Positions 1 through 47,119 are shown, counted from the whole stretch's first letter. The stretch: DNA of 63,309 bases, filler included, from Sanchytrium tribonematis (GCA_018985235.1; 20 parts of 20 records of this genome joined end to end with filler, not necessarily neighbours in it); one strand, 5' to 3'. Notes: generated by a model from the sequence alone, not told the origin. Numbers and translations: made by a program.

Positions 1-8
1 AGGCGAGT

Positions 9-12750: not shown

Positions 12751-15307
12751 ATGCTTTTATTGAACTTGGCAATGTGTGTAAAGCATTCTGATTTTAGAAC
12801 ATTTGATAACCAATTCTCACATCTTCGAGATTACAAGGCTACTATTACGAAAGTGACTTGCAATAATCCTGTTCAAGTTCATTACACGAGATATAATCCT
12901 ACAGCGCCTGATACTCCAATTTCGCAAATACTTAATATTCATATTCTTGGAAACGACAAGTACATCCACTTCAAGACCACCAGTCTTACCGATAATTACA
13001 GATATGTTCATCCACTTTTGCAAGAGCCTGAAAAAAATCTTAAACAAGAAGGGTGCCAATATTCCAATGGCAAATTCAATGTCAAGATACAAGACAACAT
13101 ACTTCATGTACAACATATTTCTATTCCTTTAGATAGAATCATTTATCAAGATAATATTGTCAAATATGAGTATGAAAATTCCTTTGGCAATTATGCAGAA
13201 ACATTGCAGGATGAGGCACTTGGCCTTCAAATCAATTACAACTATGAACAAATTTATGGATTTCCAGAACATGCAGCCCATCTAGATCACAAAAAGTATT
13301 TTGAGACTAATCCACAAGGACATGACGAGTTTATCAGATTGTATAATTTAGATGTCTTCGAATTTGAATTAAACACTAATATGGCACTGTATGGTAGCAT
13401 ACCTTTCTTTTTGGGTACTCAAAATGGGGAATGGAGTGGTGGGTTTTGGAATAATCCAAGTGATACCTTTGTTAAATTGAATACAGCAGAACAATCAATG
13501 AATATTGTGAGTGAGTCAAGTGCTTTCGAATTCTATTATTTCCAAGGAACTCCATATGAAATTTTAAAAGCATACCATGATTTGACTGGAATCCCGCAAT
13601 TACCACAATTGTTCTCAGTTGCATTTCATCAATGTAGATGGAATTATAATAATGTCGATGATGTTTTACGTGTCAATAGTAAATTTACAGAACACTCCAT
13701 GCCTGTGGATGTCATTTGGCTAGATATTGAACATACAAATGGTAAAAGATACTTCACTTGGGATGAGCACCAATTTGCTGACCCAGTTCATATGCTGGAT
13801 ACTCTGAAATCTGTTGGAAGAAATATGGTCACAATTGTAGATCCGCACATTAAGATTGATGATGAATTCTCAGTTTATCAAATGGGAAAAGAAAATGACT
13901 ATTTCGTTTGGAACAAAGATAAAGAAACTTTTACTGGAGACTGCTGGCCTGGTAGATCTGCGTGGTTTGATTTTTTGAATACCAAAATACAAGATGTTTG
14001 GGCATCTTTATTTGAATATTCGCACTATCTAAAAAGCACTCCAAGTTTATTTACTTGGAACGATATGAATGAACCAAGTGTTTTTAACAATCCAGAAATT
14101 ACAATGAATAAGGATAACATACATCGTATTTACGAAGGGAATGATGTCAAAGAAGTGCAGCATCGTCAAGTTCATAATATTTATGGCCAGATGATGCAAA
14201 AAGCTACCGCCATGGGTCAGATTAAAAGAGATGAAATCAGCAAAAGACCATTTGTATTGAGTAGAGCTTTTTATGCTGGTACCCAGCAATTTGGACCAAT
14301 TTGGACTGGAGACAACATGGCTAACTGGGAACATTTGGCCAGTACAATACCGATGCTTTTAGGATTGCAGACAAGTGGTTTGCCTTTTGTTGGTGCTGAC
14401 ATTGGTGGATTCTTTGGAAATCCAGATGGTGAGTTGATGAGCAGATGGATGCAATTAGGTGCTTTTCAGCCGTTTATGAGAGCACATGCTCATATTGAGA
14501 CTAAAAGAAGAGAGCCTTGGCTATTTGAAGAGGAATATTTCCAAAGTATGAAAAAGAGTATTCGAACAAGATACACTTTATTACCCTATATTTACACTTT
14601 GTTTTTTGAAAATATGATTGAGAGTATACCGATCATGATTCCATTATTTTTCGAGTACCCAGGATTACAAAGCGAAGATAGGTACTTGTTCGGAAAACAC
14701 ATTTGGGTACAGGGTATCCACGAGCCTAATAAGAGAGAAATTGAGGTTGATTTTCCTGAGAGATATTATTCTTTCGAAACTTCTCAGATATATGGTAAAA
14801 CAAACTGATTTAGAAGCAGGCAAGCATAACATTCCATGTGATTTGATGACATTGCCGGTTTTTGTGAGACAAGGCAGCATCATACCATTTTGGCTCAGAA
14901 ATAGAAGAAGCTCTGAATTACAAAGGAGAGATCCTATTACTCTAAAAATATATTTGAAAAATGATTATGCGAAGGGAACACTTTATATGGATGACTACGA
15001 ATCTTTCGGATACATCAATGGAGAATATATTTATAGAGAATTCGAATTTAACAAAAATATTTTATCGAACAAAAAGAAGCCCGCAATTATTAGAAAACAA
15101 GCATTACATGAGCATGCAAAAGGAAAAAATATCAAAGTTGAAAGAGTGAATAGAGTAGAAAGATTAATTATTTATGGCAAGCAATCAGCTACTACTAAAG
15201 TTAAAGTCAATGGAAATAATCTACATTTTGACATTTTAGATGGCGTTTTGACTGTAAAAGACCCTAAAATGTTAGTTAAAGATGACTGGGAAATTCATTT
15301 TGAATAA
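12751..15307 (+). CDS. ROT2: Glucosidase II alpha subunit (GH31); exons 12751-14794 and 14814-15307
   Basis: RLYNLDVFE, WLDIEH, WNDMNEPSVF (nucleophile), WTGDN, FMRAHAHIETKRREPW. The two ORFs are joined by a 19-nt intron. Confidence 0.95.
14795..14813 (+). other. 19-nt spliceosomal intron GTAAAACAAACTGATTTAG (phase 1)
   Basis: Removal joins TAT G|AA GCA and fuses the 685-aa and 188-aa ORFs in frame. Confidence 0.88.
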
Positions 15308-15323
15308 ATTGAATAAATTTAAG

Positions 15324-15941
15324 TTAGTCTTTTGTATTTTTATTGCTCCAATACGTCCACGGTGCGATCCATGAAGTCTTTTTAACAAAAAAGTCCATCA
15401 TAGAATTGAATAAGCATCCAAATCTTTCAAAAAATTCTTTGGAAACTATAAAGCGACTCTCTATAATGGCCGAGGCAAAAAATGCAAACGCGGCGTAGAC
15501 CAAGCCTAATGTGATGTACACAAGCCAATGAATGAATTGTAGCGAATAGTATAACAGCATTGATATGTTTCTCCATGCAACTTTGATTCCATTCATAAAT
15601 CCTCTTTTATTCAAAGTACACCTGTCGCGATTAAATTCTCCAACTTTTTGATCAATTTCTGCTGGGGTCAGGACTGGTTCACTTTTAAGAAAAAACGAAT
15701 CATTGTCAACTGGAATTTTCTCGGATACGAACTTTTCAGTCGAGTTTGCTACTTGATTTAGATACTTTTGATAATCGTCATAACACTCTCTGGTGGTAGA
15801 ATTTGTCAGACCAGTCGACATGCAAATTGCGAGTTGTTGTGTGCTATTCTGCCCTAAACATTTCTCATTGTGTTTTGTAACAAGGAAACTACAACTTGAT
15901 GGAAACAACTTATCTGCGAAGAGAAGAACAAAGAGAATCAT
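15324..15941 (-). CDS. Secreted or membrane protein with Cys-containing N-domain, LNKR site and hydrophobic segment
   Basis: MILFVLLFA; TLNKRGF; long hydrophobic stretch. Confidence 0.7.
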   Translation of the reverse strand: MILFVLLFADKLFPSSCSFLVTKHNEKCLGQNSTQQLAICMSTGLTNSTTRECYDDYQKYLNQVANSTEKFVSEKIPVDNDSFFLKSEPVLTPAEIDQKVGEFNRDRCTLNKRGFMNGIKVAWRNISMLLYYSLQFIHWLVYITLGLVYAAFAFFASAIIESRFIVSKEFFERFGCLFNSMMDFFVKKTSWIAPWTYWSNKNTKD

Positions 15942-16159
15942 AATTATTTCAAGGATCGCAGATGTATGGTATTAATTATGCCATATGACACCATTTTAAA
16001 CAAACTTTATTTTTTCTTTGTGTAACAGAGGTTTTATACTGGATTTTGATCGTGTTTGTAATCAAGTACATCAACCTTTATTTAGTTGTCGCTAAAATAA
16101 TGGCGCTATTTAATATTCTCACGATTTTATTAGTGGAAGGGATAGTTCGATTTCTCATT

Positions 16160-16561: not shown

Positions 16562-16686
16562 GTTAAGTTAAAAAACAATGTTTGAGGAGAATTCTTAAAT
16601 TAATTGGAACATGAGCCAATCAACTTTTGAAAATAAATTAGCCAAGAAAAATCTTTTTCAATATAAATTTTACTAAAAGACCACAC

Positions 16687-19045: not shown

Positions 19046-19139
19046 GTATCAAATTCAAGGTTTTATTTTCAGGTGACCAATCAACAATTACCAAATTAGA
19101 AAAGTTATTCTATAAGTAGACGTAGAAAATAAATTCAAA

Positions 19140-21058
19140 ATGTTTTGGTAAAACTGATTAGTCATGGTTATGTACCTGTTGCAGGCCATTTGCAACACAT
19201 TTTGAGCCATATGATACAATTTCATGATCCTTTGAATACTTACCAAGCAGTTGACTCTCCTAAATTAGATGAAAAAACCGGGGAATTGAAATTAGCATGT
19301 CAAGTTCGTGGAAAGTCAACTTATTTGCCAGCTTTAAAAACGCCGATTAGCTTGTTTAACAAATACATCATATATTCAATCTTAGAGTACGATCCACTTT
19401 TAGATTCTAGTAATTTGAGCATGCAAAATTGGTGTGAGATAGCCGAAGATTTGGCTGCAAATTACCACTTATTTGACGCATTTATTATTCTGCACGGTAC
19501 GGACACTATGGCATATACAGCCTCTGCATTGTCTTTCATGTTTGAAAATCTTGGCAAGACTGTTATTCTAACCGGATCACAAATTCCACTCTCAGAAGTA
19601 AGAAACGACGCCGTAGATAATTTGCTAGGCGCACTTACTATTGCTGGTCATTACGTGATACCTGAGGTCTGCCTGTATTTTGATAACAAACTCTTTCGTG
19701 GCAATAGAAGCTCCAAAATCGATACCATGGATTTTGATGCTTTTGACTCTCCCAATTGTGCTCCGCTTTTAACAGTAGGAATGAAAATTAATGTTAATTG
19801 GTCCCTTGTATGGAAGCCATTACAATTGCAACCCTTCAAAGTTCACACTCAAATGTCTCGTGACGTAGCTTGTCTTCGTATTTTTCCTGGGATTGCTGGT
19901 AAAACAATTGAAGCATTTATTAAGTCTGGAATCAAGGGAATTGTTTTAGAATCATTTGGCAGTGGGAATATACCAAGCAACAGACCTGACATCCTCAAGG
20001 CTCTGATGGATGCTTCCCATGAAAATGTCATTATTATAAATTGTACTCAATGCCAAAAAGGATCCGTCTTGGATATATATGAAACTGGTAAGCAATTAAA
20101 TAGGATTAATGTGATAGCAGGACATGATATGACACCTGAATGTGCATTAACAAAATTGAGCTATTTGTTGGGTAAAAATTTACCACTAGACACCATTCGA
20201 CATTTGCTAAAAACAAGCATGCGTGGAGAACTCAGTTTGCCTCCCGTTGATAAATTCAGCCAAAAATCTATAGCAGTAACTGATGTCATAGATTCTCTGA
20301 TGAATATTAACAAGAGAAATTCAAATCAGGACACCATTAAAAAAGCGCTATATCCGACTTTGTTTATGTCGGCCTGTAGTCTGAACAATACATCAGCTAT
20401 TCATGAAATCCTAGATGAAATACAACCTGATACGAATTGGCTCATTAATTCTAGTGATTATGATGGGAGAACACCTTTACACGTGACTTGTACCAAAGGA
20501 AATTTGGAAGTCGTCAAAATTCTTTTAGAAAATGGTGCATTAGTTCATTTAAAAGACATATTTGGACACACTCCATTATTTTATGCCATTAGATACCAGC
20601 ATTACAAAATTGTGGAAGCACTGGCCTTGACTGGTGCAAAATTGGCACTCCCTGCTGTTGTAGATGTGAAAACATTAAATAAGAAGATTATAAAGCAGCA
20701 AACTGAAATGGATATTGTAGATTATAAAGTGATTCAAATGGTACACGAATCCGTCATTAAGAATGATTTGAAGTTTTTAAAATTAATCATGGAGAATGGA
20801 GCACAAATCAATCAAGGTAATGTTGAAGGAAAAACTGCCTTGCACATTGCTGCAGCATTGGGAAAATTAGAGATTGTTAAATATTTACTTGATGAAAATG
20901 CAGATCATACGCTCGTGGATATATATGGAGAAACTGCATTGCAATTAGCAGAAAAGCACCACAAATTACTTGCAAAAGTACAATCTCACGGAGATTTGCA
21001 TTTACTTCACAATTTAGGGGAGGTTGTTGAACTGTTGAAATCTTGTAAACACAATTAA
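19140..21058 (+). CDS. Type I asparaginase / 60-kDa lysophospholipase (ASPG-like) with ankyrin repeats; 5' end uncertain
   Basis: LDSSN, HGTDTMAY, TGSQIP, FRGNR, DMTPECALTKL; C-terminal ankyrin repeats (DYDGRTPLH, GKTALH). The N-terminal TGGTI motif was not found. Confidence 0.9.
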
Positions 21059-22391: not shown

Positions 22392-23820
22392 TTAATCACT
22401 TGGACCGATCATTTCTTCTGGTCTTACCCATTTGTCAAAATCCTCACTAGTTAGCAGTTTCAAAGCAATTGCAGCTTCTTTCAAAGTTGTTCCCTCCTTG
22501 TGCGCTTTCTTTGCAGCCTTTGCAGCATTATCATAACCTATATAAATGCAAATTACCAATATATGGATTTAATGCCGTGACTAACATCAATGATTCATTC
22601 ATTATACTGTTGATTTTCTCTTTATTCGCAACTGTACCAGAAACACAATGCTCTGCAAAAGAGCGACTTCCATCTGCCAACAATCGAATACTTTGCAATA
22701 AATTTCGAATCATTACAGGTTTAAAAACATTTAATTCGAAATGTCCATTTGATCCACCAACTGAAATGGAAACATGATTTCCCATGACCTGTGCACAAAT
22801 CATAGTCATTGATTCACATTGAGTCGGATTCACTTTTCCAGGCATAATACTACTACCTGGTTCATTTTCTGGCAAACTTAGCTCACCTAAACCGCATCGA
22901 GGTCCACTGCCCAATAATCTAAAGTCATTTGCTATTTTCATCAAAGAACAAGCTAGTGTATTCAAAGCTCCACTTGCAAATACAATGGCATCTTTCGAAG
23001 CCAAAGCTTCAAATTTATTTGGCGCTGTTTCGAAAGGCAAGTCAGTCAATTCTGCAATCTGCTTGGCAACAGTAATATCATACCCTTTTTTTGTATTCAA
23101 ACCAGTGCCGACAGCTGTTCCACCCAATGCCAGATAGTAAAGATGAGGCAATGCATATTCGACTCTTTGAATTCCTAAATTGATCTGTTGAACATATCCG
23201 CTAAACTCTTGTCCCAATGTTAAGGGAGTTGCATCTTGTAAATGAGTTCGCCCAATTTTAATAATATCTTTAAATTCATCTGATTTTTTTTGCAGCTCAT
23301 CTTTTAGAGCGTGAAGTGCGGGTATTAAGTCATTCTTAATTGCCATCGCAGCTGCAATATGCATTGCTGTTGGAAAAGTATCATTAGAAGACTGTCCCAT
23401 ATTGATGTGATCATTTGGGTGTACTGGTTTTTTGCTTCCTAGTTCGCCACCTAGTATTTCAATTGCTCTATTGCTAATGACCTCGTTGCAATTCATGTTG
23501 CTTTGTGTGCCGCTTCCAGTTTGATAAGTGACTAGTGGGAAATGTTCGTCCAATTTTCCTGTTATAACTTCGTCACAGGCTTGAACGATCGCAGGAAATT
23601 TATCACTTAGTTTGTCTTTGTTAATGATGGCACAAGCCTTTTTAATGACGCCGAATGCGTGAATAACTTTAATTGGCATCTTATCCGTAGAGTCTCCAAT
23701 CTTAAAATTCATTAAACTTCTTTGTGTTTGTGCTCCATAATATTTATCTGACGGAACTTGAAGCTCTCCAAATGTATCTCTTTCTGTACGTGTTGCCATT
23801 CGTCTGAGGGCGCGCAACAT
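22392..23820 (-). CDS. FUM1: Fumarate hydratase class II; exons 23820-22557 and 22537-22392
   Basis: [38 protein letters not shown]. The spliced C-terminus reads [26 protein letters not shown]...[12 protein letters not shown]. Confidence 0.97.
22538..22556 (-). other. 19-nt spliceosomal intron GTAATTTGCATTTATATAG (phase 1)
   Basis: Removal restores the conserved fumarase IG-YD motif and C-terminus. Confidence 0.93.
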
Positions 23821-25522: not shown

Positions 25523-25893
25523 GTCCTAGGATCGAGGTTCGCCCATATACTTTTGTAATTGCTGAAATTCGATTAATCCATTTACCCGCATTTTTGGCGA
25601 AATTGGAATTTCAGTTTGTGGATTCTATCGCTGAGCCACTCTTATTGTCCCATCACTTTTAAATAACTTTTTACTTAAAGCACCTGGCTTATAAGTATTA
25701 AAATAAACAAAAACAGTTATTTAAAAATACAATTTACTCAGCAACAGTAACTTCGGAGCGATAATTTATCTTGCAAGTACAGGTATTCTACAATTAGATG
25801 GCAGAATTTGATTGCAATCCAATGCTTTACTGTAGCTCATTTCAGAAATCAAGACTTTGGTCGTTATGATTTGACCGCTTTGTTTTTTCTCGA

Positions 25894-27213
25894 ATGTCTG
25901 AAATTATGGCCACAAAAGTTTCATATTTGGCGGATATTTCAAATAATAAAATTGTGTTGGACATCATTGGCAACTCAAAATACCTCAACATTAACTTGGA
26001 GTCACTTCCTGATGAGCCATTAATAGGTTTGAGTAGTTATTTGGCCTATGGTAGTGGAAATTTGGAAAATCCATTGAAAAGAAAACCACACCCAAATTAC
26101 ATTTTGCAGTATCAAACAGAGAAATACCTCTTTAAAGCAAGAAAGATATTGATTTTACACTGTGGGTTATTGCTGGATGTATTGGAACCGCTTTTGGTGC
26201 ATTCTTGGAAAAATATGGCTGGCTTGGAATTTAATGATTCTATTATTCCTCTCATAAGCAAATCATTCTTGATGAAAACTATAGAAACTTCTGTAGTGGA
26301 CACAAGTGAATATCGCTTATTATTTGAAGGTGCGACATCCTTAAAGTCATTATTCGAAGATTGGAACTCTCAGTTTTGTAAAGTTGAGGCCATTCCCGAA
26401 ATGTCAAGTATTTACTCGAAGTACATTCAAATCAGCGACTTGACTGCTTGCAATAGTGGATTTGAAGAATCTAACGTTCAAGGATGCAAGGATATCTTCA
26501 ACGACTTTGTGTCTCAATGTAGAATCAAATATGGAATGTTTAAACGGCAAATTATGGTAATTGGAACTTCAGAAAGTGGTAAGACTGTTCTTTCTAATAG
26601 GTTGAGTCAGTATTATGAGTTGGATATGGTGACAGATACTCCCTCGGCTAATCCACATGGGAGCGTGCTAGATTGTAATTTGTTTGATGTGACAAGTGTT
26701 TCTAGTGCAATCGAGAATTTTAAACCGAATTTAATTATTATTCTAGGTAAAGACAAGAATGATCATTTGATATCAATAATTGAATTTGTAAATACATTAG
26801 ACGTGGAATTGGTTTTTATTGGTAATGAATTTTATGAATTTGAAAAGTCTCCAGCTGACCTGAAAAACATAGTATGGCCAAGGGATGACTTTCTATTTAA
26901 AGATACCCGATTTTCTTTATGGAAACACATAATTAAACAGCTTAAGCCGTCATTCTGCTATGACATCCCGATTGAATACAAAAAGTCAGAAATGGACAGA
27001 ATCAAAGTTCATTTGGAAACCATCAAGTCAATTGAGAATTCACCCATACAAGAATTAAAGTATGAAATTCCAGAAACAGAATATTCCAAGGATGCCGCTA
27101 GAACATTAGAAAAAGTGATTCCTCATATAATCACAGGGTTAAAAACAATAGATCTAAAAGATAGCAAAACAGTGATTCAAGATCTCGGTAATTATTTGCT
27201 AGCAATCAAATAA
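25894..27213 (+). CDS. Divergent adenylate kinase 7-like protein
   Basis: RKPHPNY...EK motif, P-loop GTSESGKT, C-terminal Dpy-30-like VIPHIITGL...LGNYL. Confidence 0.6.
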   Translation: MSEIMATKVSYLADISNNKIVLDIIGNSKYLNINLESLPDEPLIGLSSYLAYGSGNLENPLKRKPHPNYILQYQTEKYLFKARKILILHCGLLLDVLEPLLVHSWKNMAGLEFNDSIIPLISKSFLMKTIETSVVDTSEYRLLFEGATSLKSLFEDWNSQFCKVEAIPEMSSIYSKYIQISDLTACNSGFEESNVQGCKDIFNDFVSQCRIKYGMFKRQIMVIGTSESGKTVLSNRLSQYYELDMVTDTPSANPHGSVLDCNLFDVTSVSSAIENFKPNLIIILGKDKNDHLISIIEFVNTLDVELVFIGNEFYEFEKSPADLKNIVWPRDDFLFKDTRFSLWKHIIKQLKPSFCYDIPIEYKKSEMDRIKVHLETIKSIENSPIQELKYEIPETEYSKDAARTLEKVIPHIITGLKTIDLKDSKTVIQDLGNYLLAIK

Positions 27214-27263
27214 AGGATTGTTTAATTACTGGTTTATTTGAAGCGCTTCCCCTTGGAGTAGTT

Positions 27264-28661
27264 ATGAATTTTTTCCGTACTTTTGCCATTGACCCTATCA
27301 AATCACTTTTGGGTTTCGACGATGAAAACTCTACGCAGCCAAAAGTGAAAGCGACAGAAAATATTCGGACATTAAAAAAGAATCCACTTATCAAATCCAT
27401 AAGAAAATCATTAGATGAAAATCAGTTTCAAAATGTCATTGACCTGTTGATTGAGTTTGCATCTAACTTTCAATTTGAAGCAGATTTGATTTATGCAGAA
27501 ATTCGGTTAAGAAATAATGGACAATGGAAAATCATGTTTGAAAAATACAAGGACGACGACAATTTACCAAATAGGAATTTAGCTATGGGATTACTTTACT
27601 ATTTTGGGTTCGGAATTTATAAGAACAAAACTTACTCGTTGGCTGAATTTGAAAAGATATCAACAAGTAGTGCAGTTGCCCTATATTTTATGGGATGTAT
27701 TCACTATGAATTTAAGAGGTACGAAAAGGCATTTGAATGTCATAGCAAATCCATGGATATGAATTACAATCCTGCATTCAGTTCTTTAGGTTGGTTGTAT
27801 AAAATTGGAGCAGGTGTCGAAAAAGATATTGCTATCGCAAAAGAGCATTTTGAAAAATCACCAAAAAATCCTTCTTCATTGTTTTCACTTGGAAAAATTT
27901 ACTATGAGAGTGATGATATTGCCAAATCCATTGATTATTTTTCAAGATCCTCTGAATTTGGATGTTGTCTTGGTCTGCACTTTCTTGGAGTGATTTATTG
28001 GGCGGGAAAAAGTGTTGAAAGAGATGAAGACACTGCTTGGCAATATTTTAATCAGGCATTTGAGTTGGGTAGTATGGATTCTCTTCTATTTTTAGGTACT
28101 TATTTCAAGAACAAGAATGATTTTGAAAAGGCTATTTCATACTTCAAGCTTGCTATCACCAAAGATATTTACCAGTCAAATTACCGATTGGGGAAGTTAT
28201 ATCTCAAAAATACAAAACAATTTGATCTTGCCATTGAACAATTAAAGGCTGGTGCCCAGAAAAACGATCCTAAAGCCATATTTCTTTTAGGAGATTGTTA
28301 CTTTAAAGGTCATGGGGTTGAGAAAGACATTGAGACTGCCATAATCAAATATGAATTGGCTGGATCACTGGGGTTTGCCGACAGCTATTACAAATTATCA
28401 AGTCTTTACAAAGGAAAATATGGCATGCCAGTTGACCTTGCTTACCACTTTAAGTTTTTGGAAAAAGCTGCTGCATTGAACATGCCTCTGGCGTGTCGTA
28501 AGCTCGCACTTTGTTATCAAACTGGAAGTGGTGTAGCTATATCAGATGATGCTGCCATAGAATGTTTCGAGAAAGCGATACAGCTTGGAGATAAAGAGTC
28601 GAAATTACTGTTGGAAAGATTAAATCAGAAGCGGTACAAAAGGCAACGACGTAGCATGTAG
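27264..28661 (+). CDS. SEL1-repeat protein
   Basis: Multiple LG..Y..G.GV.KD...A repeats. Confidence 0.9.
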   Translation: MNFFRTFAIDPIKSLLGFDDENSTQPKVKATENIRTLKKNPLIKSIRKSLDENQFQNVIDLLIEFASNFQFEADLIYAEIRLRNNGQWKIMFEKYKDDDNLPNRNLAMGLLYYFGFGIYKNKTYSLAEFEKISTSSAVALYFMGCIHYEFKRYEKAFECHSKSMDMNYNPAFSSLGWLYKIGAGVEKDIAIAKEHFEKSPKNPSSLFSLGKIYYESDDIAKSIDYFSRSSEFGCCLGLHFLGVIYWAGKSVERDEDTAWQYFNQAFELGSMDSLLFLGTYFKNKNDFEKAISYFKLAITKDIYQSNYRLGKLYLKNTKQFDLAIEQLKAGAQKNDPKAIFLLGDCYFKGHGVEKDIETAIIKYELAGSLGFADSYYKLSSLYKGKYGMPVDLAYHFKFLEKAAALNMPLACRKLALCYQTGSGVAISDDAAIECFEKAIQLGDKESKLLLERLNQKRYKRQRRSM

Positions 28662-28890
28662 TCAAATTTATGTAGCATAAGTGTATCAATAAAATCAATT
28701 GAATTTATTTCATGGACAAATTACCTTAACATGTTTTGTTTTTCTCTAATTCTAATTTCGCAGTTAAATGGTTGTTACAGATTTGTTGCATTTGCTTTAA
28801 AGACTTTTCAAATGTGCTTTCATTGCTTGACTCTTTAAATCCATCAATTTCAACGGTGATTAAATGGGGATTCCCTTGTGACATTCGACA

Positions 28891-32229: not shown

Positions 32230-32297
32230 GGTTCAATAAATGTAAACTTACTATTTGTTATAATTTATCAACTAGGCCAATCGTGTTTTACTTCAAA

Positions 32298-33187: not shown

Positions 33188-35440
33188 CCATCAATCTAGA
33201 CATTATTTGGCAATATATGCGAATTACCTTAAACAGGTAAACGGTGTACCGGTGTTTCTAGGGTTTGACTGAATTCGAGAATAAGGAATGTTTTGATGCT
33301 AATGAGCATATTCATGCTATTGAAAAAGTATTGCAATCATATCACAGACATTGGATTTGGACTAAAGCAGCTTTAGTCGAAAGTCACAAAAAGAATTGAA
33401 AGATCAATTGCAACGGAATATACAAGAGACAGAATTAAGACTGTCAGAGATGCATATGAACTAGCAATTACTCTTGAATCAGATTTTGAACCCTCTCATG
33501 ATCATAAGAAAAAGCGAGATCATCGAAATGAAAAACCATTTAAACCATTCAAGAAGTATAAGCATGATTCAAAGAATGAAAAACTAGAGTTTAAGAAACC
33601 ATTTGGAAAACCAAAATTTCCTTTTCCTAAGAAACCGTGCAAAGGAGATCATCCTAAGGCGGAAGAAATCAGTAAAGAATTCTGAATCTTATCTACCTTC
33701 TTGCATCTTAAAAGGGAAAATTAGGAATAATCTATTCCCGTTTTTATTTGACACTGGTGCTAGCCATAGCTTTATGCCGATTAAGACTGCCCAAGATTTA
33801 AAACTCCCAATATCCAAATCAAGCCACACAAGCGCGACTTAAGTTAATGGTCATGGAATTAAAATCTTAGGAGAAGTTTCCGCGAATGTATGCTTTGATT
33901 TGATTCCGTTACGAATTAAATTCTTAGTAATAGATACCGGAAACGAGAAATCAGTTATAATTGGTAGAGATAGCATGTTTGAATTTCAAATTCGAATCGA
34001 TTTTGATTCCGAATTCGTATGGGTAAAAGGACATCGGCATTGTCAAGGAAGAAGTACAAAAGATGTTGGAAAACGGAATTATCGAACCATCAAATTCAGA
34101 TTGGAGAGCAGCAGTGGTGCTGATTCCAAAACCTAATGGTCAAGTGAGATTCTGTGTCAATTACAAGCCACTTAATAAGCATACAAAATTTGATGCTTGT
34201 CCACTTCCTAACTTACAAGCTTTATTGCACAGTCCGAATGGCGCTAGATACTTTATTGTACTAGACCTTAAGTTTGGATATTGGCAATTAAAAGTGGAAG
34301 AGGAAGACAAAGAAAAGACAGCTTTCGTGACACCATTTGGACTTTATCAATTTACGGTAATGCCTTTTGAATTGTCTACAGCTCCAGCTACTTTTCAACG
34401 ACTTATTGACTCAATTTTTGCAGACAACATGAATAAAAATTATGTTGGTCTATCTAGATGACCTACTAATTTATACATCGTCATTTGAAGAACTATTAGA
34501 AAGGTTCCAGAAGGTCCTAAAGAAATTGGCCTTACATGGACTGACATTGAGTGCCAAGAAATGCTATTTGGGAATGACAGAAGTAGATTTCTTAGGATTC
34601 AAAGTATCAAATAATGGAATCCAACCAACTGAAGCAAAAATTGAAGCAGTAAAAGCGTTCAAACCCCCTCGGAATTAAACTGAAATAAGACAATTTGTAA
34701 GATTTACGAGCTTTTATAGATGCTTTATCCACAAATATGCCACACTTAGTCAACCACTGTATGAATTAACTAAAAAAAATGCGGAGTTCCTGTGGACTCA
34801 AAAGCAACAGCAAGCTTTTGAAACCTTGAAAAGTGCAATACTGTCACCTCAAGTACTACTTGCACATCCTCAATATGATCTCCCATTTTATGTGGAGCAG
34901 TATTAGTTCAGTTTGGATGAAATCTAGCACAGAATAGTGCTATTTTAGGACATGCAGGATCACAGCAGGTATCTATATACTTATATGATTACTAAACAAC
35001 CTAGAATCAAAAATTTACTACAACACCAATTTGAAGCTAGAATCCCTGCAAATATTTTAGAACGAATATATATCGATTTCAAGGACCACTACCTATTCAT
35101 CCAGATCACCATACTGATGAAAAATACATAGTAAGTATACTTGACGATTGCTCAAGATTCTTAAATGCTATACCAACAAATTCCACAAAAGTCGATAATG
35201 CAATTGATGCAATTCAGAGACATTGGATACAAATCTTTGGTCCACCAAAAGAAATTGTTGTGGATATGGCATTATATAAAAGCAAAAAGTTTATCGCTTT
35301 TGCTAAATCAATAGGTGCTAAATTACAACAAACTGCACCATATGCTCATTTTCAGAATCCTGTAGAAAGACTTCACAGAGAACTGGATAATAAAGCTAGA
35401 GCATACAAGCATTCACATAATGCACATTGGACAGAGGCTT
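33188..35440 (+). mobile_element. Decayed Ty3/Gypsy LTR retrotransposon (gag remnant, protease, RT, partial RNase H, integrase) with frameshifts and stops
   Basis: FLFDTGASHSF protease; RFCVNY, LDLKFGYWQ, KTAFVTPFGLYQF, YLDD; integrase-like IFGPPKEIVVD and NPVERLHREL. Confidence 0.93.
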
Positions 35441-36245: not shown

Positions 36246-36254
36246 TAAATGAGT

Positions 36255-38094: not shown

Positions 38095-39361
38095 CTAAGT
38101 TCTGTTTGTATAAACTGTGCGGGCAAAAGAAATTGTGAGTTGCTCCAATTTCGATATCTTTTCCTCTGAAAGTACAATATCTTCATCATTTTCGTTATTG
38201 GGAATTGCAAGCAAGATTTTCATTTCTTGTCCTATTAATACTCGTGCATGTCGATGCAGTACCAAAGCTGACTCTCTTGAGAGGGCAGTCGACTTTTTTC
38301 TGGTTGTGTTAAAACTTTTAAAATCATGAAAACCGTTGTATGCATTCCACATTGCTCTTCTAGGAAAAATATTGATTTTAAGGTCGCGAACATTTTTAAT
38401 GTGCGAAGAGCTTAGAGGCTTTGATTCATCAGAATCATCATTTTCTAGCATATTTAACTTTTTTGTGCTACGAGAAACTGCCGATGATGAGAAAGGAATT
38501 TTGTTTTGGGGTTCCAAATTTGCAGATTCTTTACAAAACATTCCAGTTCCTATTTTGCTTATATCGGAGCATTTGATTTGACCTGAGTCTGTACCACTGG
38601 CTACCTTGGAAGTTTCCTTGGCGCTGTTGCTACCGAAAATTAGTTTTCGCAATCCATTTTTTAGCAATGAAACTTTTCCATAGGTTTCTACTATTGGGAC
38701 CTCCGTATTGTTTTTAAGAGCTTCTTTTCTTTTTTGATATGCTACATATTCTTTCAATACTCCCTCTTCTACTGGAACTCCATGTACTGTTCTCAATAAC
38801 TTTGATGGCAACAATGCATTAAGCAGCTTGTTTTTTCCAACCAATTTTCCGAGTTTAGTTGGTGTTGGAGGCTTTCCTAAATTAAAACAAAGTACTAACT
38901 TCATCCCATTCTTTCAAAAATGCATTCATGTCTACTGAATGAAGTATTTTGCTCTCTTCCTCAGACACTTTGCGTTGTGAAGCATATTTCAATAAATCTC
39001 GATCTCTTTTCTCTCTCCTCTTTCTAGATTCATCCAGTTGGGCATGCAAAGCTGAAAATGGAGACTCTTCAAAATATGGAAACCCATTTGGATTAGACAA
39101 ATTGCTAGTCACTGCACTACTCAAATAGTTGGTGACATTTTGTTCATCTGCAAAATTGGACTTTTCAAAGTTCTTTGGTCTCTTTTCTCTGAAATTTTTG
39201 ACTTCAGGTAATTCACGAGATTCAAATGCTTCTCCTCCATGTGAAATACTTTTTCTTGGAATGGCACTTTGTGAGTTCTGACTTGGCTTGACCCTGATGC
39301 TGTTGCTTGAATTTTTACAAGAGTTGACTAAAACTGAGCTAATTGAAGATAAATTTTTCAT
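38095..39361 (-). CDS. Hypothetical protein; exons 39361-38896 and 38876-38095
   Basis: The 159-aa and 269-aa ORFs are joined in frame by a 19-nt GT-AG intron. Confidence 0.7.
38877..38895 (-). other. 19-nt spliceosomal intron GTACTTTGTTTTAATTTAG (phase 1)
   Basis: GTT A|GA AAG joins the two ORFs; the alternative upstream GT (23 nt) leads to an early stop. Confidence 0.78.
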
Positions 39362-39508
39362 GGCCTTTTGGAAATTTTGGTCAATATTTTATGTACAAAT
39401 GGCATTACTGATGCGAAGGAATTTATATTTGATAAATCATCAATGATATTTAACATGATACCTCATTCAGCTATAGACTTTTGATTTATTTTTCAAACTT
39501 TTGGAGAT

Positions 39509-40134: not shown

Positions 40135-40234
40135 NNNNNNNNNNNNNNNNNNNNNNNNNNNNNNNNNNNNNNNNNNNNTTAATTAATTAANNNNNNNNNN
40201 NNNNNNNNNNNNNNNNNNNNNNNNNNNNNNNNNN

Positions 40235-42467
40235 CATGATGTACAATATTCATTATATCAGATTGATTTTGTGCTGGTGCTTCTAATATGCCTTGAAACA
40301 CATTGCTTAATTCTCTCATATTGAAAATATAGTGAAATTTAACAGCAGTGGGTAAAAATTGGATACAGGCTCTTTTATGGATATTCAAGACACTATTCAG
40401 TACTTGAGTGGTATTAGATTGACAAAAAGGATTGCCTTGCTTTAAAATAGTGCCATAAATATGATTTAAATCTGCATCATTTGGTGAATTTAACACTAAA
40501 ATGCTAAAATGTCGTTGTAATCTCTTGCTGATAGTGAAATTACCACTAGTAGGATTCATTGCACAGATATATTGACAGTTAATCACATCTTTTAATTGCA
40601 TTTTAGATTTATCATACCAATGCGAATAATCCAAGTGCTGTCTCAATAGAGTGTGACAGCTGACTGTACCATATTTATCTACTTCTGGCATGTTTAAATC
40701 ATCTATAAAATATATTAATTTCTTATTTCCAACTGGTCCAAAAGTTTTACCTACTTTCTTTTCCAATGGTTTCTCTAATATTGGCTGTAATAATGAACTA
40801 GTGGTGTAATAATTGAATGGGATATTAATAAATGAGTGTGTATCACTAAATTGTTGCAATTTCTGCTTGATCAAACATGTTTTACCTACTCCAGCCATTC
40901 CAACCAATAAAGTGGGATGACCATGTTTTATTAAAATATCCAATAAATAATACTGTCTAATGGTTTCTGTGATGGGTACTAGAGTATCAAATATAACATC
41001 ATTCAAATCTACTTGTAATTGTTTCGTATTCCAATTTAAAAAGGATTTAGACTCAAAATCATAATAAACGTCAAATACACTCAAATCAACTGGAAATAGA
41101 TTGAATTCATTCTTAAATGCTTTAGAAAACTCTAATCTATAGTCACATGCTATATCTTGCATGATACACCCACCAAATGCCCAAACAGCACTAAATGCAA
41201 AATATCCTTCAATAATCTCCTTTTCAAATATTTTGATTAAAAAGTGATCAAGGAATCTAAATAGAGTGTTTATCATGTTATATGGTAATATATCACAATG
41301 TTTTACCTTTTTAATCAGCTCTAAACAGAATGGAACATATCTTTCAAATAATTGACTTAAAATAGCTCTTTCATTTGCATCTTCTCTCTTTTGAATCCAA
41401 CTATTTATAATCGCATTATAACTCACATCATTCTGTGAAATATATAAAATACCTGCTCGTGACACTGTTGCAGGTGTGGCATATTTTAAATCCCCAATTT
41501 CAAATACCAATCTCATATTATTTTTAAGTGGAATTCTCTCATTACTGGCCAATGTCAACACTTTATTATCGTCCATAACAGTATTTAGTGATTCTATCCA
41601 CATAGGATCAATATCCCCATCTAATAATATCCATTTTGGATCATTATTTCCATTTGCAAAATCACGCATGACGGTGCTAAATAATCCATCTCTCCATTCT
41701 CTAGTAGATGGATTCATATATCCAAATAATTCATCATTTGTCACTGCTTTAGGATCCAAATCCACAAATTGACATTTCCTATTTAATTTGTGGTAGGCGC
41801 GTGCCAAAGTTTTCCATACTTTAGATTTACCAGTTGCAGCATCACCAAGAATAAAAACACAGTGTCTGACTTGTAATAATTCTTCTAATTGTACACATTT
41901 TAAGATAAAATTGTCTTCTGGCTGTAAATTCAATTCCAAACATGAATTTACAATTTCTTGTTCCAATAAAACATCCCTTTTCCTAGCAACTTCTAATTTA
42001 GGAAATAAATCAGCAATTAGACCCAGAAAGATTGGAACATCTTCTAATACAATTTTAGGGATATTAAAATCTCTTAAAGCACGCATTAAAACTTGATCTT
42101 CTGGAACATTTGCTGTTTCACTCCGCTTCAAACTACCAGCAACTACCAATACGCTCTTGATGGCTCTTAATCCCCAGTCATAATGATCTTGTTTACTCAA
42201 CAACTCTCTATTTAATTTATATAATGTATTAAATTTACGGGCTAGAATATTTGCATTTGTAAAACCTTCTGCCATCAACATGATTTCCATAATTAACTCC
42301 AAATTAGGCACCACCATACTACATGGTCTGAAGAGTGCTTTCAAATTATCAGGTAATTCTGCCCTTCCAGCATATCCAGGATTCATTGTGATCCAAATAC
42401 CAACAGTTGATTTTAATTTGATTTCTTCCCCTAAAAAGTTGAATTTATTCTTCTTTGCTCTCAAAGC
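40235..42467 (-). CDS. Axonemal dynein heavy chain, internal fragment (end of AAA1 to AAA3), outer-arm beta/DNAH9-11-17-like
   Basis: ITMNPGYAGRAELP, LSKQDHYDWGLRAIKSVL, P-loops GDAATGKS and GMAGVGKT, DGDIDPMWIESLNTVMDDNK. Confidence 0.93.
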
Positions 42468-42942: not shown

Positions 42943-44795
42943 ATGATTTTGTTTCTCGTGCTTTCAATTATTCACGGTATCTCAGACTGTGATCTACTGA
43001 TCCAGCTTGGCCAGCAAATGATTATTGATGATTACTTTATATCAGACATATTACCTGACTGTTGTAACACTGGCTATGTGGTCTGTGATTCTAATCAGCA
43101 AATCGTGCTAGAAGTAAATTTTCAAGGAGTTTCTAGTAATGGTGGAGGTCACGTTGACCCATCTTTTATCCCTGTAAATGTGACTCATTTGGATCTGTCG
43201 TACAACGGTTTAATTGGAGAAATTCCATCATTTGAATTGCCTTATCTCAAAAGTATTACACTTTCATACAATTCATTTGATAGTATTCATACGGGTGCGT
43301 TTAGTTCATCATCAATACTGAATGAAGTACACCTGAATCACAATATGATTGCGGGTGAATTAGTTCTACCTGATTCTGTTGAGACAATTGATGTATCTTT
43401 CAACAAATTAGCTGCGATTAATTCGCCTGTAAATCTAATTCATTTAACAGCTAATGATAATTTATTAATAGATTTCCCAACATTTCCTGAGAACCTCGTT
43501 GATATAGATGTTGGTAATAATGCGTTCAAGGCAGGCCCACTCCCTGAATTCTCAAGCAGTTTAATTACAGTAATAATTCCAAATTGCAATAGAAATGGTT
43601 CTTTATATGATTTAAAGTCGATCCAGACTTTTCTGGCCAACAACAATCATTTTGAATCGTACCCTTCTGTTTCCAATAACATGTATAATATTAATTTGGA
43701 CTTCAATCAAATGAAAGGCTCAATACCAAATTTTGGTGGTGCTGTCATTGTACGTGCAAAAAACAATCAATTATCTGGTAGTATTCCAGCGTTTAGTGGC
43801 TCTATCACAGACTGTGTTCTCTCAAATAATCAGTTGACTGGATCTATCCCACAAATTCCAGGTCAAATGCGCATGTTAGATGTAGGTAATAATCTACTGA
43901 CAGGAAATATACCGACTGGTGCAACGGCGTTATACAGGCTTATAGTTTCCAATAATTACATGAGTGGAGACATCTCAGGACATTATGTTAGAATGTTGGC
44001 ATTAGTTTTGAATTCACCTTCGACAACTGTCAACTCAGAATCATACACCGCTTTGCCAAATTTTGATCCCTATGTAAATAATTACAAGATTAATGATTTC
44101 ACAGGAGATGTAACAGTTTGGCAGTCATATTACATTGGAATATCAAATACTCGATTGAATTCATTCACGATTCAGATACCAAGCAATCCTGCTTTTTGTA
44201 ATATGGCGAATAATGAACTCACCAATGATATTTCTAATTACAACTGTTTAAAAACGCCCACTTATACAGCAGCTGTTAAACCTGATTGCGATTTATTGAG
44301 CTTGTTTTTACTTAATTTACAGCTCAACAGCACCAATCCGACCAAATTTAACGAAATAGCAACACTTTGCTGTGCTTCTCCTCACATTTCTTGTCAGAGC
44401 GATCATATTATTTCAATTACTCTAACAAATCTAGGTTTAAAAGGAACTTTGGATGCCAATTTGTTGCCAGCAAATTTGAAAACTCTCGACCTTCAGTTGA
44501 ATTATTTGCATGGCTCTATTCCAAACAACTTTCCATCAACCTTGGAAACTTTAAGACTGGACAATAATATGTTTGAAGGAAGTATTCCTCAATTTCCTAT
44601 GAATTTAATTGAGCTCTCCGTCATAGGAAATTATCTATCCGGAACTGTCCCATATTTGTCGTCTCTCAAGATTTTGAAGATATCTGCGCAGCCAAATTCC
44701 GTAAGTCACCCCCAGCTAAATAGATTCACAACCAATAGACTTTCTGGCACACTCGTTTTAAATCAACCAAATGTACTGTTTGCCACACGTAATTC
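42943..44795 (+). CDS. Secreted LRR protein with two Cys-cap/LRR modules, 3'-truncated
   Basis: MILFLVLSIIHG; SDC...DCC cap; many LxLxxNxLxGxIP repeats. Confidence 0.9.
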
Positions 44796-44895
44796 NNNNN
44801 NNNNNNNNNNNNNNNNNNNNNNNNNNNNNNNNNNNNNNNTTAATTAATTAANNNNNNNNNNNNNNNNNNNNNNNNNNNNNNNNNNNNNNNNNNNN

Positions 44896-45410
44896 ACTTC
44901 TTTTTGCTTTTGCTCTAGCCATCTTTCAATTAAATCTTTATTTTCTTTTTTTAATTCAGCACATTTCTCATCTAATTTTGCAAGTTCTAAGTTTAACAAG
45001 GATATTTCGTCGTGAAGCAATTCAATACCTTTATCTTTTTCCATTATCACCTCTTTTAAAGTTTGTATTTCTGCTAATTGTTTTTCTACTACAATCGATG
45101 TTTTATCTAAGCTTGATTTTGACTTTAAGAAATCTTGTTGTTGCGAGACATTTTGAGTAAGCAGTTTTTCACACCGCTTCTTCAATCTTTCATTTTCAAG
45201 TGATATTGCGTGGTTGTCGGCTTCCGACTGATGATACAATCTCATAAATGTAGATTCTTCCTCTGATTCATTTTTCATTACAATTTGATTTAACTTTCGC
45301 AATCTTTCTATTTCATCCTGGAGATAAACGATATGGTGGTACGGTTCCAAGTTGAGCTGGTCTCTTTGATTAATTTTATTCTTGAGGTATTCCTGCATGT
45401 CGATGGACAT
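44896..45410 (-). CDS. ATG16: Autophagy protein Atg16-like coiled coil, 3'-truncated
   Basis: N-terminal ..RD.. helix and LHDEISLLNLEL...LKKENKDLIERWL. Confidence 0.75.
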
Positions 45411-45559
45411 TGTATGAAAAAATATATAATATTTGATTATCATTGTACCCAAGATTCATTCACTTTATGATGTGTATAATAATTGGTAATATAGCGTTAA
45501 ATTGAAATTTTAAGGAAGCTCAGGTGGGGGTTATTTTCAAAACGAAGTGCGAAATTTTG

Positions 45560-47119
45560 ATGGCCTTGGAAGCAGAATTGAATCCACTATTGAACCCTAG
45601 AGAACTACATCCACGGCAGTCGAAGTTTCTTATATTACTGCCGTTATCATTGCTCATTATTATCATTGCTGGAATCAGTTATAGTTTCTCAATAATCAAT
45701 GAAAGATTTTATTTAAATGGAGCTTGTGCCACTGATAATAAGATCTGTTCTCGGATGTGTGTTAAGATATTGAAAGATAAAGGAAACGCAGTTGACGCTG
45801 GAATTGCAGCAGCAATCTGTTTGGGAACTGTAAATTCTTTTGCCAGTGGAATTGGAGGCGGCGGTTTTGCAATAGTAGGTGGTAATACTGAGACTCCTCA
45901 ATTTTTTAATTTTAGAGAGAAAGCACCAGCTGCTTCATATCCCGAAATGTTTGTAAATAATCCTATAGAAGCTCAAATAGGAGCTAAATCTGTAGGAGTT
46001 CCTGGAGAACTTCTTGGGTTATGGAAACTACACATTAAGTATGGCGACCTTGAGTGGAAAGATTTAATTTCTCCGAGCATAAAGCTTGCTGAAAAAGGTT
46101 TTCCAGCACATGAATTACTTATCAGACGACTTAGCAGTGCTAAAGATGGAATTGTTAACGACCAGGGTCTTTCTAAAGTGTACACCAAAGTTAAAGACGG
46201 TGTCAAGATTTTAATCGAGGAAGGTGATTTGGTTTATCGACAAAATTACGCAGAAACTTTAAAAGATATTTCTAAAAATGGCATCAAAAATTTTTATTTC
46301 GGCGAGACAGCGCAGATTCTTGTTGACTTTTTGAAAAGCAACGGAGGCGTCTTAACTTTGGAAGATTTTGGAAATTTTACCGTTACGCAACATGCAACAT
46401 TGCATCTTAACTATAATGGGTACGATATTCACACATCTAATCTACCGAGTGGAGGGCCGGTACTAGGACTGATGCTGAAAATTATGGAACATTTTCAATA
46501 TCCTTCTGGAAAAGCCGAGGATATAGACTATCAAAGATTAATTGAATCAATGAAATGGGGATACGCGCAAAGGTCTTATTTTGGAGATCCCGAGTTCGTG
46601 AAGAATGCGAGCGAGATTGTAAGCAAAATCTTAGATGCGAATTTTATTGACCAGATACCACAAAAAATTAATGATTATGTAACCTTTGAACCTAAATACT
46701 GTATTCTTAATTAAATTAGATGGATCGGATTACGAAACTATAGAAGATCATGGCACAACGCACTTGTCTGTTGTAGATAAGAACGGGCTGAGTATTGCAT
46801 TAACAAGTACTATCAACTTAAATTTTGGCAGTTTTTTGATGGAGCCTAAAACCGGAATAATTTTGAATGATCAACTGGACGACTTTTCCATTCCCGGGAA
46901 AAGTAATTACTTTGGTTTAAAGCCATCAACCTCAAACTACATATACCCGGGTAAGCGTCCACAAAGCTCCACTTGCCCGGCTTTAATCTTTAAAGGAAAT
47001 GACTTGGTCTTAAGTATAGGAGGAAGCGGCGGTAGCAGAATTGGTACTGCTGTATTCCAAACAATACTAAGGGTGCTTGAGCAACACATAGGCGTTAATC
47101 ATGCAATCCAACTTCCACG
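45560..47119 (+). CDS. Gamma-glutamyltranspeptidase; exons 45560-46700 and 46720 to beyond 47119 (3'-truncated)
   Basis: GNAVDA, SGIGGGGF, FREKAP, VGVPGEL, DHGTTHLSV (catalytic Thr), LNDQLDDFS, PGKRPQSS, GGSGGSRI. Confidence 0.95.
46701..46719 (+). other. 19-nt spliceosomal intron GTATTCTTAATTAAATTAG (phase 1)
   Basis: TAC T|AT GGA gives PKYYGSDYETIEDHGTTH and fuses the GGT large- and small-subunit ORFs. Confidence 0.9.

What the first reader, a model, noticed from the sequence alone, without database searches (positions are those of the whole stretch)
14795..46719. Uniform 19-nt spliceosomal introns with a fixed branch-point position
Seen: four split host genes on three contigs are each repaired by removing exactly 19 nt. 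They are GH31 14795-14813 GTAAAACAAACTGATTTAG, FUM1 22538-22556 GTAATTTGCATTTATATAG, a hypothetical gene 38877-38895 GTACTTTGTTTTAATTTAG, and GGT 46701-46719 GTATTCTTAATTAAATTAG. Aligned without gaps, all have GTA at 1-3, T at 12, A at 14 (6 nt from the 3' end) and TAG at the end. All are phase 1 and have no polypyrimidine tract. Three lie in conserved enzymes, so the joined reading frames are well supported. Known: introns this small occur in heterotrich ciliates (Stentor, 15-16 nt, also with an A about 6 nt from the 3' end) and chlorarachniophyte nucleomorphs (about 18-21 nt); typical fungal introns are far longer. Inference: this lineage uses a ruler-like, probably reduced spliceosome forming a lariat loop of about 14 nt. 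Gene predictors with a minimum intron of 20 nt or more would mis-annotate these genes.
Basis: partly seen in the sequence, partly recalled or inferred. Interest (0 to 1): 0.92.

Follow-up and report, generated by a model that had tools for sequence, protein, structure and literature searches.

The report
Nineteen-base introns in sanchytrid fungi
In a little-studied fungal parasite of algae, four genes are interrupted by 19-base inserts that are very likely introns cut out by the ordinary splicing machinery, which would make them shorter than any fungal or animal introns I found described, and published gene sets for this group cut such genes short.

Summary
All four 19-nt GTA…TAG segments are at the stated coordinates (FUM1 and the hypothetical gene on the minus strand), all phase 1, with T12 and A14. 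The window is a sanchytrid fungus, Sanchytrium tribonematis or close kin. Three are well supported as introns. For FUM1 and GGT the 19-nt GT-AG removal scores best, or joint best, among about 1,500 possible deletions. Orthologues from other sanchytrid assemblies break at the same codon. The FUM1 site matches a human FH intron in codon and phase. An uninterrupted GH31 relative aligns without a gap across the junction. The fourth fits the motif only. What is fixed seems to be the branch A six bases from the 3' end rather than total length: relatives imply 19, possibly 20, and one 30-nt version. The sister genus keeps most core spliceosome proteins; Slu7, Prp18 and U1C are not annotated. No RNA evidence was obtainable. 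Similar tiny introns are known in ciliates, nucleomorphs and mikrocytids; I found no report for sanchytrids, and none of the eight earlier scan notes shown concerns sanchytrids.

The parts
14795..14813 (+). 19-nt phase-1 GT-AG intron in the GH31 (glucosidase II alpha-like) gene; predicted branch A at 14808
   Evidence: Pfam GH31 C-terminal domain is cut at the break; best of the 3 GT/GC-AG options; spliced product aligns without a gap to the uninterrupted relative P0244; rank only 103 of 1086 among all deletions against a distant-homologue profile
12751..15307 (+). GH31 gene: exon 1 12751-14794, exon 2 14814-15307
22538..22556 (-). 19-nt phase-1 GT-AG intron in FUM1 (class II fumarase); predicted branch A at 22543
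   Evidence: joint top of 1565 deletions and the only GT-AG among the tied ones; relatives break at the same Gly codon; same codon and phase as human FH c.1390+1
22392..23820 (-). FUM1 gene: exon 1 23820-22557, exon 2 22537-22392
38877..38895 (-). 19-nt phase-1 GT-AG candidate intron in a sanchytrid-specific hypothetical gene; predicted branch A at 38882; supported by motif only
   Evidence: joins 164 and 259 open codons, but the downstream ORF has its own ATG at 38904, and the only homologue found (94% identical, S. tribonematis) is uninformative
38095..39361 (-). Hypothetical gene: predicted exon 1 39361-38896, exon 2 38876-38095
46701..46719 (+). 19-nt phase-1 GT-AG intron in the gamma-glutamyltranspeptidase gene; predicted branch A at 46714
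   Evidence: single best of 1429 deletions; two relatives stop and one reads through at the same codon
45560..47119 (+). GGT gene: exon 1 45560-46700, exon 2 from 46720, cut by the contig end

Best explanation
The four 19-base GT-AG segments interrupt genes of a sanchytrid fungus and are very likely major-class (U2-type) spliceosomal introns, at least one of them an old intron shrunk close to the working minimum, with the predicted branch adenosine held six bases from the 3' end. Shown by sequence: the boundaries, the frame repair, the shared positions in relatives, and the match of the FUM1 site to a human intron position. Inferred mechanism: U1 and then U6 read a minimal GTA donor; U2 pairs with a degenerate (C/T)T(R/T)A(T/A) branch region; branching makes a lariat loop of about 14 nt; and the acceptor is simply the TAG that begins three bases after the branch A, so no polypyrimidine tract or scanning is needed. 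That short branch-to-AG distance would make the second-step factors Slu7 and Prp18 dispensable, as in yeast extracts, which fits their absence from the sister genus's annotation. The 5' part can vary (a relative's 30-nt version), so 19 nt is probably a floor and a mode reached by genome compaction, not an absolute ruler.
For: Boundaries and frames. Unbiased deletion scan with profiles built from non-sanchytrid homologues: FUM1 19 nt scores 903.2 bits against 893.2 for 1 nt, 897.8 for 16 nt and 894.3 for 22 nt; GGT 554.2 against 547.1, 550.3 and 549.1. Orthologues break at the same codon: FUM1 in P0001, P0002 and P0003 (A. gromovi); GGT in P0124 and P0126 (A. gromovi), with in-frame read-through in P0125. 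P0002's tail fits exactly 19 nt followed by the conserved Gly-Tyr-Asp codons. Three tails have their stop at intron positions 12-14, where the window's branch TRA sits (about 7% chance each; the two GGT tails are not independent). Human FH has a donor variant c.1390+1G>T (PMC12282009) and Gly464 is the Gly of NPHIG-YD: same codon and phase. GH31 relative P0244 is one uninterrupted ORF, collinear with the 19-nt removal. Indel control 0 of 3000. Spliceosome and Dbr1 annotated in A. gromovi. Slu7/Prp18 not needed at short branch-to-3'SS distance in yeast (PMC3392075; bioRxiv 10.1101/212811).
Against: Only four introns, one of them motif-only. For GH31 a distant-homologue profile prefers non-canonical 10-13 nt deletions by about 2.4 bits. 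Branch motifs are degenerate (only 2 of 4 are TRAY). Relatives' intron sequences are inferred from peptide tails, not read from DNA. The absence of Slu7, Prp18 and U1C comes from an eggNOG table that annotates only about half of the predicted proteins, for the sister genus and not this organism. Splicing itself is not shown by any RNA data.
Confidence: 0.85

Rival explanations
1. Strict length ruler, the reader's version: the spliceosome of this species accepts essentially only 19-nt introns, as heterotrich ciliates and mikrocytids do with 15-17 nt, and is heavily reduced.
For: 4 of 4 window introns are 19 nt. P0002's FUM1 intron is 19 nt, and three relatives' tails are compatible with 19 nt. 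No break in the 47 host genes or fragments needed another length (parts of the outputs of 19 and 43 were cut).
Against: P0125 implies 30 nt and P0001 20 nt or more, although these are other species. Most core spliceosomal proteins I looked up are annotated in A. gromovi, unlike the 17-19 proteins reported for Mikrocytos.
Confidence: 0.3
2. The introns are real but poorly spliced relics, as in microsporidia, so most transcripts keep them and are degraded or give truncated proteins.
For: Short E. cuniculi introns are spliced at under 20% (PMC6349667). Three of the four carry an in-frame stop at positions 12-14, and all shift the frame if retained.
Against: The exons after the introns are well conserved (FUM1 C-terminal domain, GGT second half), so enough spliced mRNA must be made. 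This reading is compatible with the best explanation and differs only in efficiency.
Confidence: 0.25
3. The breaks are assembly indels or pseudogenising frameshifts, and the GT-AG pattern is coincidence.
For: The contigs are short, and 844 of 3000 simulated single-base insertions can be 'repaired' by some short GT-AG segment.
Against: Homology needs 19 extra bases, not 1. Other assemblies break at the same codons. The FUM1 site matches a human intron. 0 of 3000 simulated breaks fit the specific motif.
Confidence: 0.02
4. The segments are removed or bypassed without the spliceosome: Ire1/HAC1-type or tRNA-type cleavage and ligation, or ribosomal frameshifting or hopping.
For: Recalled, no call: Ire1-cut hacA introns of filamentous fungi are about 20 nt long.
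Against: All four have GT-AG ends and an A at -6. No inverted repeats of 8 nt or more were found around any of them. One site is an ancestral spliceosomal position. A spliceosome is annotated in the sister genus.
Confidence: 0.03
5. For the hypothetical gene only: there is no intron, and two overlapping ORFs are made, the second starting at ATG 38904.
For: An in-frame ATG lies 9 nt upstream of the GT, and the S. tribonematis homologue P0243 was called from the same ATG with the intron-spanning peptide unchanged.
Against: The segment matches all the fixed positions of the three validated introns and the same phase; 0 of 3000 simulated breaks did so. P0243 is an ORF-caller product of genomic DNA, and at 94% identity an unchanged six-residue stretch is expected anyway.
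Confidence: 0.15

Closest known systems
Heterotrich ciliate 15-16 nt introns (Stentor, Blepharisma; PMC9505925 and PMC13685798, passages read)
   Same: GTA start, TAG end, A+T-rich, degenerate branch region, branch A six bases from the 3' end (A10 of 15, A11 of 16), low density (under 0.10 per CDS kb there; about 0.09 here), largely conserved spliceosome core
   Different: Four nt longer in the 5'-to-branch loop; length is not a multiple of three; all phase 1 here against a phase-0 bias there; a fungal parasite rather than a free-living ciliate; one 30-nt variant in a relative
Chlorarachniophyte nucleomorph introns, 18-21 nt with mode 19 and rare 27-32 nt outliers (PMC4035089 and PMC10245619, passages read)
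   Same: Same modal length and occasional longer outliers
   Different: Those are dense (hundreds in a few hundred genes) in a relic endosymbiont nucleus; here they are sparse (4 in 47 genes or fragments) in the main nucleus of a fungus
Mikrocytid 16-17 nt introns (PMC10245619, passages read)
   Same: Tiny, uniform, in a parasite
   Different: Mikrocytos has a spliceosome of only 17-19 identified proteins and no introns in metabolic enzyme genes; here three of four are in metabolic enzymes and the sister genus keeps most core factors looked up
Yarrowia lipolytica branch-anchored 3' ends, BP-AG distance 2 nt (PMC2483917, passages read)
   Same: No polypyrimidine tract, and the branch A falls at -6 (ACTAAC-NN-AG), the geometry seen here and in the 30-nt relative
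   Different: Yarrowia introns are long with a strong ACTAAC motif; here the motif is degenerate and the whole intron is 19 nt
Microsporidian (about 25 nt) and Rozella (about 30 nt) introns; myxozoan introns with median 22 nt (PMC6349667 introduction and passages; PMC13644364 part 1 of 3)
   Same: Short introns in reduced opisthokont parasites
   Different: The sanchytrid introns are shorter, have no strong branch motif, and three of four lie in the 3' half of the gene rather than next to the start codon; sanchytrids are a separate lineage, so the shrinkage is presumably independent (inference)

Membership tests
U2-type (major) spliceosomal intron | GT...YAG termini | tested here: met
   GTA...TAG in 4 of 4
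U2-type (major) spliceosomal intron | Removal restores a conserved reading frame at a unique junction | tested here: met
   met for FUM1 and GGT by profile scan and for GH31 by collinearity with P0244; not testable for the hypothetical gene
U2-type (major) spliceosomal intron | Position shared with orthologous introns | tested here: met
   FUM1 with other sanchytrids and human FH; GGT with three relatives; GH31 absent in P0244
U2-type (major) spliceosomal intron | Branch adenosine in a YTRAY-like context | tested here: inconclusive
   T at -8 and A at -6 in 4 of 4, but TRAY in only 2 of 4; branching not observed
U2-type (major) spliceosomal intron | Excision from RNA through a 2'-5' lariat | not testable with these tools
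   No RNA run was listed
U2-type (major) spliceosomal intron | Host encodes a major spliceosome | tested here: inconclusive
   Core proteins and Dbr1 are annotated in the sister genus A. gromovi; for S. tribonematis only Prp5 was seen before the table was cut; no snRNA lies in the window; no genome held
U12-type (minor) intron | Conserved RTATCCTT donor and TTCCTTRAY branch (consensus recalled) | tested here: not met
   Three of four do not resemble it. The GGT donor GTATTCTT matches at 7 of 8 positions, but relatives' orthologous donors do not keep it
Length-constrained tiny introns (heterotrich, mikrocytid or nucleomorph kind) | Genome-wide narrow length peak under about 22 nt | tested here: inconclusive
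   4 of 4 at 19 nt in the window; relatives imply 19, 20 or more, and 30 nt; no genome-wide census possible
Length-constrained tiny introns (heterotrich, mikrocytid or nucleomorph kind) | Fixed branch-to-3' splice site distance | tested here: met
   A at -6 in 4 of 4 window introns and in the inferred 30-nt and 20-nt versions; the branch role itself is inferred
Introner or transposon-derived introns | Sequence similarity among copies, terminal inverted repeats or target-site duplications | tested here: not met
   Interiors differ; no flanking repeat of 8 nt or more at the junctions; one site is ancestral

The most novel reading that the evidence does not exclude
Sanchytrids have the shortest spliceosomal introns among fungi and animals, with a genome-wide mode of 19 nt reached independently of microsporidia. 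They are spliced by a nearly complete fungal spliceosome that has dropped just the 3'-site-docking factors Slu7 and Prp18, because every acceptor AG sits right behind the branch point. That would be a natural test of the yeast rule that these factors matter only for distant 3' sites, and of how small a lariat a standard spliceosome can close.
Probability: 0.4. Interest if true: 0.8.

Novelty: new variant of a known kind. Interest (0 to 1): 0.63.

Why it matters
Introns under about 22 nt are described from only a few lineages (heterotrich ciliates, mikrocytids, chlorarachniophyte nucleomorphs). A case in true fungi adds an independent origin close to yeast, where spliceosome structure and genetics are best understood, so sanchytrid spliceosome proteins can be mapped onto yeast structures to ask what allows a 14-nt lariat. 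The FUM1 intron is shared in position with humans, so an ancient intron appears to have shrunk rather than a new one arisen. In practice, the published sanchytrid proteomes were called as plain ORFs on genomic contigs, and at least FUM1 and GGT of A. gromovi are truncated at these introns, which affects gene-loss and domain-loss claims for this phylum.

Tried and rejected
No genome is held for the window, so no genome-wide census or snRNA search was possible. The look-up of sequencing runs: no RNA holder listed; this is not evidence either way. A DNA pattern for a 14-44 nt intron at the FUM1 site found 0 matches in JGI metagenomes. The sanchytrid GGT alignment found no sanchytrid DNA: 2 unrelated loci in metagenomes (L001 and L002 are 62% and 53% GC with 28-42% identity in the matched pieces), none in viral contigs, and 80 prokaryotic loci in GTDB. 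So relatives' introns could be read only through their proteins. Rfam found one tRNA and no snRNA. An unconstrained GT/GC-AG scan was too noisy to use and its output was cut. In-frame motif matches in dynein (42113-42136, 40953-40979, 40863-40889) were rejected: the protein aligns to DNAH17 with no such inserts. 28658-28675, 32242-32275, 5240-5274, 11315-11333 and 45263-45281 were rejected because the genes are complete without them or nothing is joined. P0102 (FUM1, ENA) ends three codons later and falls outside the sanchytrid clade, so it was left out. The Atlas search on the asparaginase gave only family-level hits. [quoted passage not shown]
Full report
Window and organism. The window is 20 contigs joined by N44-TTAATTAATTAA-N44 spacers, about 31-36% GC, gene-dense and almost intron-free. 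It encodes fungal and flagellar markers (copper fist, axonemal dynein, DUF4200). The closest named FUM1 is Amoeboradix gromovi at 85-86% identity, with two unnamed ENA proteins at 86-87%. These four form a 100/99 clade in a 27-sequence tree chosen from the 120 listed hits, with the window as sister to the other three. The hypothetical gene's only homologue is a Sanchytrium tribonematis protein at 94% identity. Gene neighbourhoods also match A. gromovi: asparaginase, FUM1 and CCDC37 share a contig, and ATG16 shares one with GGT. The organism is therefore a sanchytrid, S. tribonematis or close kin.

The observation. All four segments are present as quoted; two are on the minus strand. All are phase 1, start GTA, end TAG, and have T12 and A14. 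The motif by itself is common: 6 matches at 19 nt against 3.1 expected from 20 Markov simulations. What is not chance is that the motif sits exactly at gene breaks: none of 3000 simulated single-base insertions could be repaired by it, while 844 could be repaired by some GT-AG segment of 13-31 nt.

Junction tests. I scored every frame-restoring deletion of length 3n+1 up to 70 nt around the break against profiles of non-sanchytrid homologues (116 FUM1 proteins; up to 70 GGT proteins longer than 520 aa). For FUM1 (1565 deletions) the best length was 19 nt (903.2 bits; 893.2 for 1 nt, 897.8 for 16, 894.3 for 22). Eleven register-shifted 19-nt deletions tie, and only one of them is GT-AG. For GGT (1429 deletions) the GT-AG 19-mer was the single best (554.2; 547.1 for 1 nt). 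For GH31 (1086 deletions up to 58 nt, 60 homologues) it was the best of three canonical options but ranked 103rd overall, 2.4 bits below non-canonical 10-13 nt deletions. However, the closest relative P0244, an uninterrupted 839-aa ORF from ENA, aligns without a gap across the 19-nt junction. The hypothetical gene cannot be tested by homology, and its second ORF has its own ATG at 38904, so it rests on the motif.

Relatives. No sanchytrid DNA could be fetched, but ORF-caller proteins read into the introns and record them. FUM1 of P0001, P0002 and A. gromovi all end just after the Gly of NPYIG/NPFIG; GGT of P0124 and A. gromovi end just after the matching codon. Back-translation shows that P0002's tail fits exactly 19 nt followed by the conserved Gly-Tyr-Asp codons. 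Three tails have their stop at intron positions 12-14, where three of the window's introns have TRA (about 0.07 chance each; not independent). P0001 cannot be 19 nt; if its stop is the acceptor TAG it is 20 nt, with T at -8 and A at -6. P0125 reads through a 10-residue insert absent from the full-length GGTs aligned, implying a 30-nt intron ending Y-A-C-N-A-A-Y-A-T-H-G: A at -6 in a context compatible with the yeast TACTAAC box. These are inferences from peptides. They suggest that the branch-to-acceptor distance is what is fixed and that 19 nt is the usual, near-minimal length.

Age. Human FH has a donor-site variant c.1390+1G>T (PMC12282009, passage). Base 1390 is the first base of codon 464, and residue 464 of the full-length human protein is the Gly of NPHIG-YD. 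The FUM1 intron is thus at the same codon and phase as a human intron; shared ancestry is the simplest reading, though parallel gain is not excluded. This argues against an assembly error or a recent insertion. No transposon-like repeats flank the introns.

Density and position. Four introns in 47 host genes or fragments (43.6 kb) give about 0.09 per kb (my gene list, transposons left out). A scan for 5' introns that join a short ATG exon found nothing convincing, and 2.2 kb of dynein has no in-frame inserts. Three of the four lie in the 3' half of the gene (about 81%, 90% and 66% of the length; the fourth at about 37%), opposite to the 5' bias expected from reverse-transcriptase-mediated loss (PMC6349667 introduction). 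All four are phase 1. With n = 4, both patterns are leads only.

Spliceosome. In Supplementary Data 1 of PMC8371127 (eggNOG table; the A. gromovi sheet is held up to the start of the second sheet, the S. tribonematis sheet is cut early) I found rows for Prp8, Brr2, SF3B1, U2AF small subunit; Snu114, U2AF large subunit, SF1, U1-70K, Syf1, a Prp16/Prp22-like helicase; Prp17, Prp40, Isy1; and Prp5, a Prp2-like helicase, Yju2/CCDC94, Cwc25 and Dbr1. Slu7, Prp18 and U1C gave no hit by recalled KEGG or KOG number, and Slu7 and Prp18 none by name. The table annotates only about half of the proteins, so these absences are soft. In yeast, Slu7, Prp18 and Prp22 are not needed for exon ligation when the branch-to-3' site distance is under 7-9 nt (PMC3392075 and bioRxiv 10.1101/212811, passages), which fits the geometry here.

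Mechanism. Shown: boundaries, frame repair, shared positions. Inferred: U2-type splicing with a minimal GTA donor, branching at A14 to give a loop of about 14 nt, and use of the TAG immediately downstream without a polypyrimidine tract. Untested: the RNA product, the lariat, splicing efficiency, the snRNAs and the genome-wide length distribution.

Comparison and novelty. Introns this small are described in heterotrich ciliates (15-16 nt, branch A also at -6), mikrocytids (16-17 nt) and chlorarachniophyte nucleomorphs (mode 19 nt with rare longer ones). The -6 geometry matches Yarrowia. The shortest opisthokont figures I saw were about 25 nt in Encephalitozoon, about 30 nt in Rozella and a median of 22 nt in myxozoans. 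The sanchytrid genome paper predicted proteins with TransDecoder on contigs; in its main text 'intron' occurs once, in a reference title, and 'splic' not at all. Its Supplementary Information PDF and one data file were too large to read and could mention introns. Searches for sanchytrid and introns gave 0 papers; Sanchytri and intron gave 9, of which I read passages of two and saw the rest only as listings, none about sanchytrid nuclear introns by title or abstract start. Searches added nothing on this by their listings. The library lacks most subscription journals. The scan's own index met none of the words sanchytrid, Amoeboradix or Sanchytrium and holds nothing for this genome.

Verdict. 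A real feature, very likely tiny U2-type introns, apparently unreported for this phylum and shorter than other fungal or animal introns I found described. It is a new, independent variant of a known phenomenon, not a new kind of splicing, and it rests on three firm cases and one probable case without RNA data. Interest 0.63.

Noticed in passing
window 19133-19215 (+), asparaginase/ASPG gene: The ORF has no in-frame ATG before residue 27, although an HGYVP stretch that looks conserved lies upstream of it, and no TGGT catalytic motif (motif recalled) is visible. An out-of-frame ATG at 19140 could be joined by removing 19148-19161 (GTAAAACTGATTAG, 14 nt, resembling the GH31 intron but with A at -5). 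A 14-nt intron would be below any length I found described; a non-AUG start or a decayed N-terminus is more likely.
   Followed up: partly
window 22529-22567 (-), FUM1 junction: The exon end and the intron end are similar enough (TATATTG-GT against TATATAG-GT) that a 19-nt deletion can slide from -8 to +2 with the same profile score; only one register is GT-AG.
   Followed up: partly
window 40236-42467 (-): Well-conserved outer-arm dynein beta-type heavy chain fragment (best match DNAH17/DNAH9) in a lineage whose flagellum is described as non-motile (PMC10459994, abstract start).
   Followed up: no
window 11949-12410 (-): Two ORF pieces in the same frame are separated by a single TGA at about 12243-12245; the downstream piece has no early ATG. 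A pseudogene, a sequencing error or stop read-through; no Pfam match.
   Followed up: no
window 33377-35439 (+), 54455-56005 (+), 3-2168 (+), 3248-3796 (-): Transposon pieces: a broken LTR retrotransposon (protease, RT, integrase), DDE transposase fragments, an integrase zinc-binding fragment and an RT ORF.
   Followed up: no
window 7464-9159 (-): Three short cysteine-rich ORFs in a row with signal-peptide-like starts and no Pfam match; they look like a secreted protein family.
   Followed up: no
window 49540-50657 (+): Two tandem, closely similar glutathione S-transferase genes, followed by a TAAA tetranucleotide repeat in the short gap to the convergent gene.
   Followed up: no
whole window: Very short intergenic spaces; several convergent gene pairs are separated by under 30 nt, and ORFs 25870-27213 and 27192-28661 overlap in their stop-to-stop extents.
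   Followed up: partly
window 12507-12577 (-): One tRNA gene (Rfam RF00005).
   Followed up: no
proteins P0001, P0002, P0121, P0124, P0125, P0244: Unnamed ENA metagenome proteins group with, or most resemble, the sanchytrids, some on contigs of 26-58 kb: undescribed sanchytrid genomes that could widen the intron census.
   Followed up: partly
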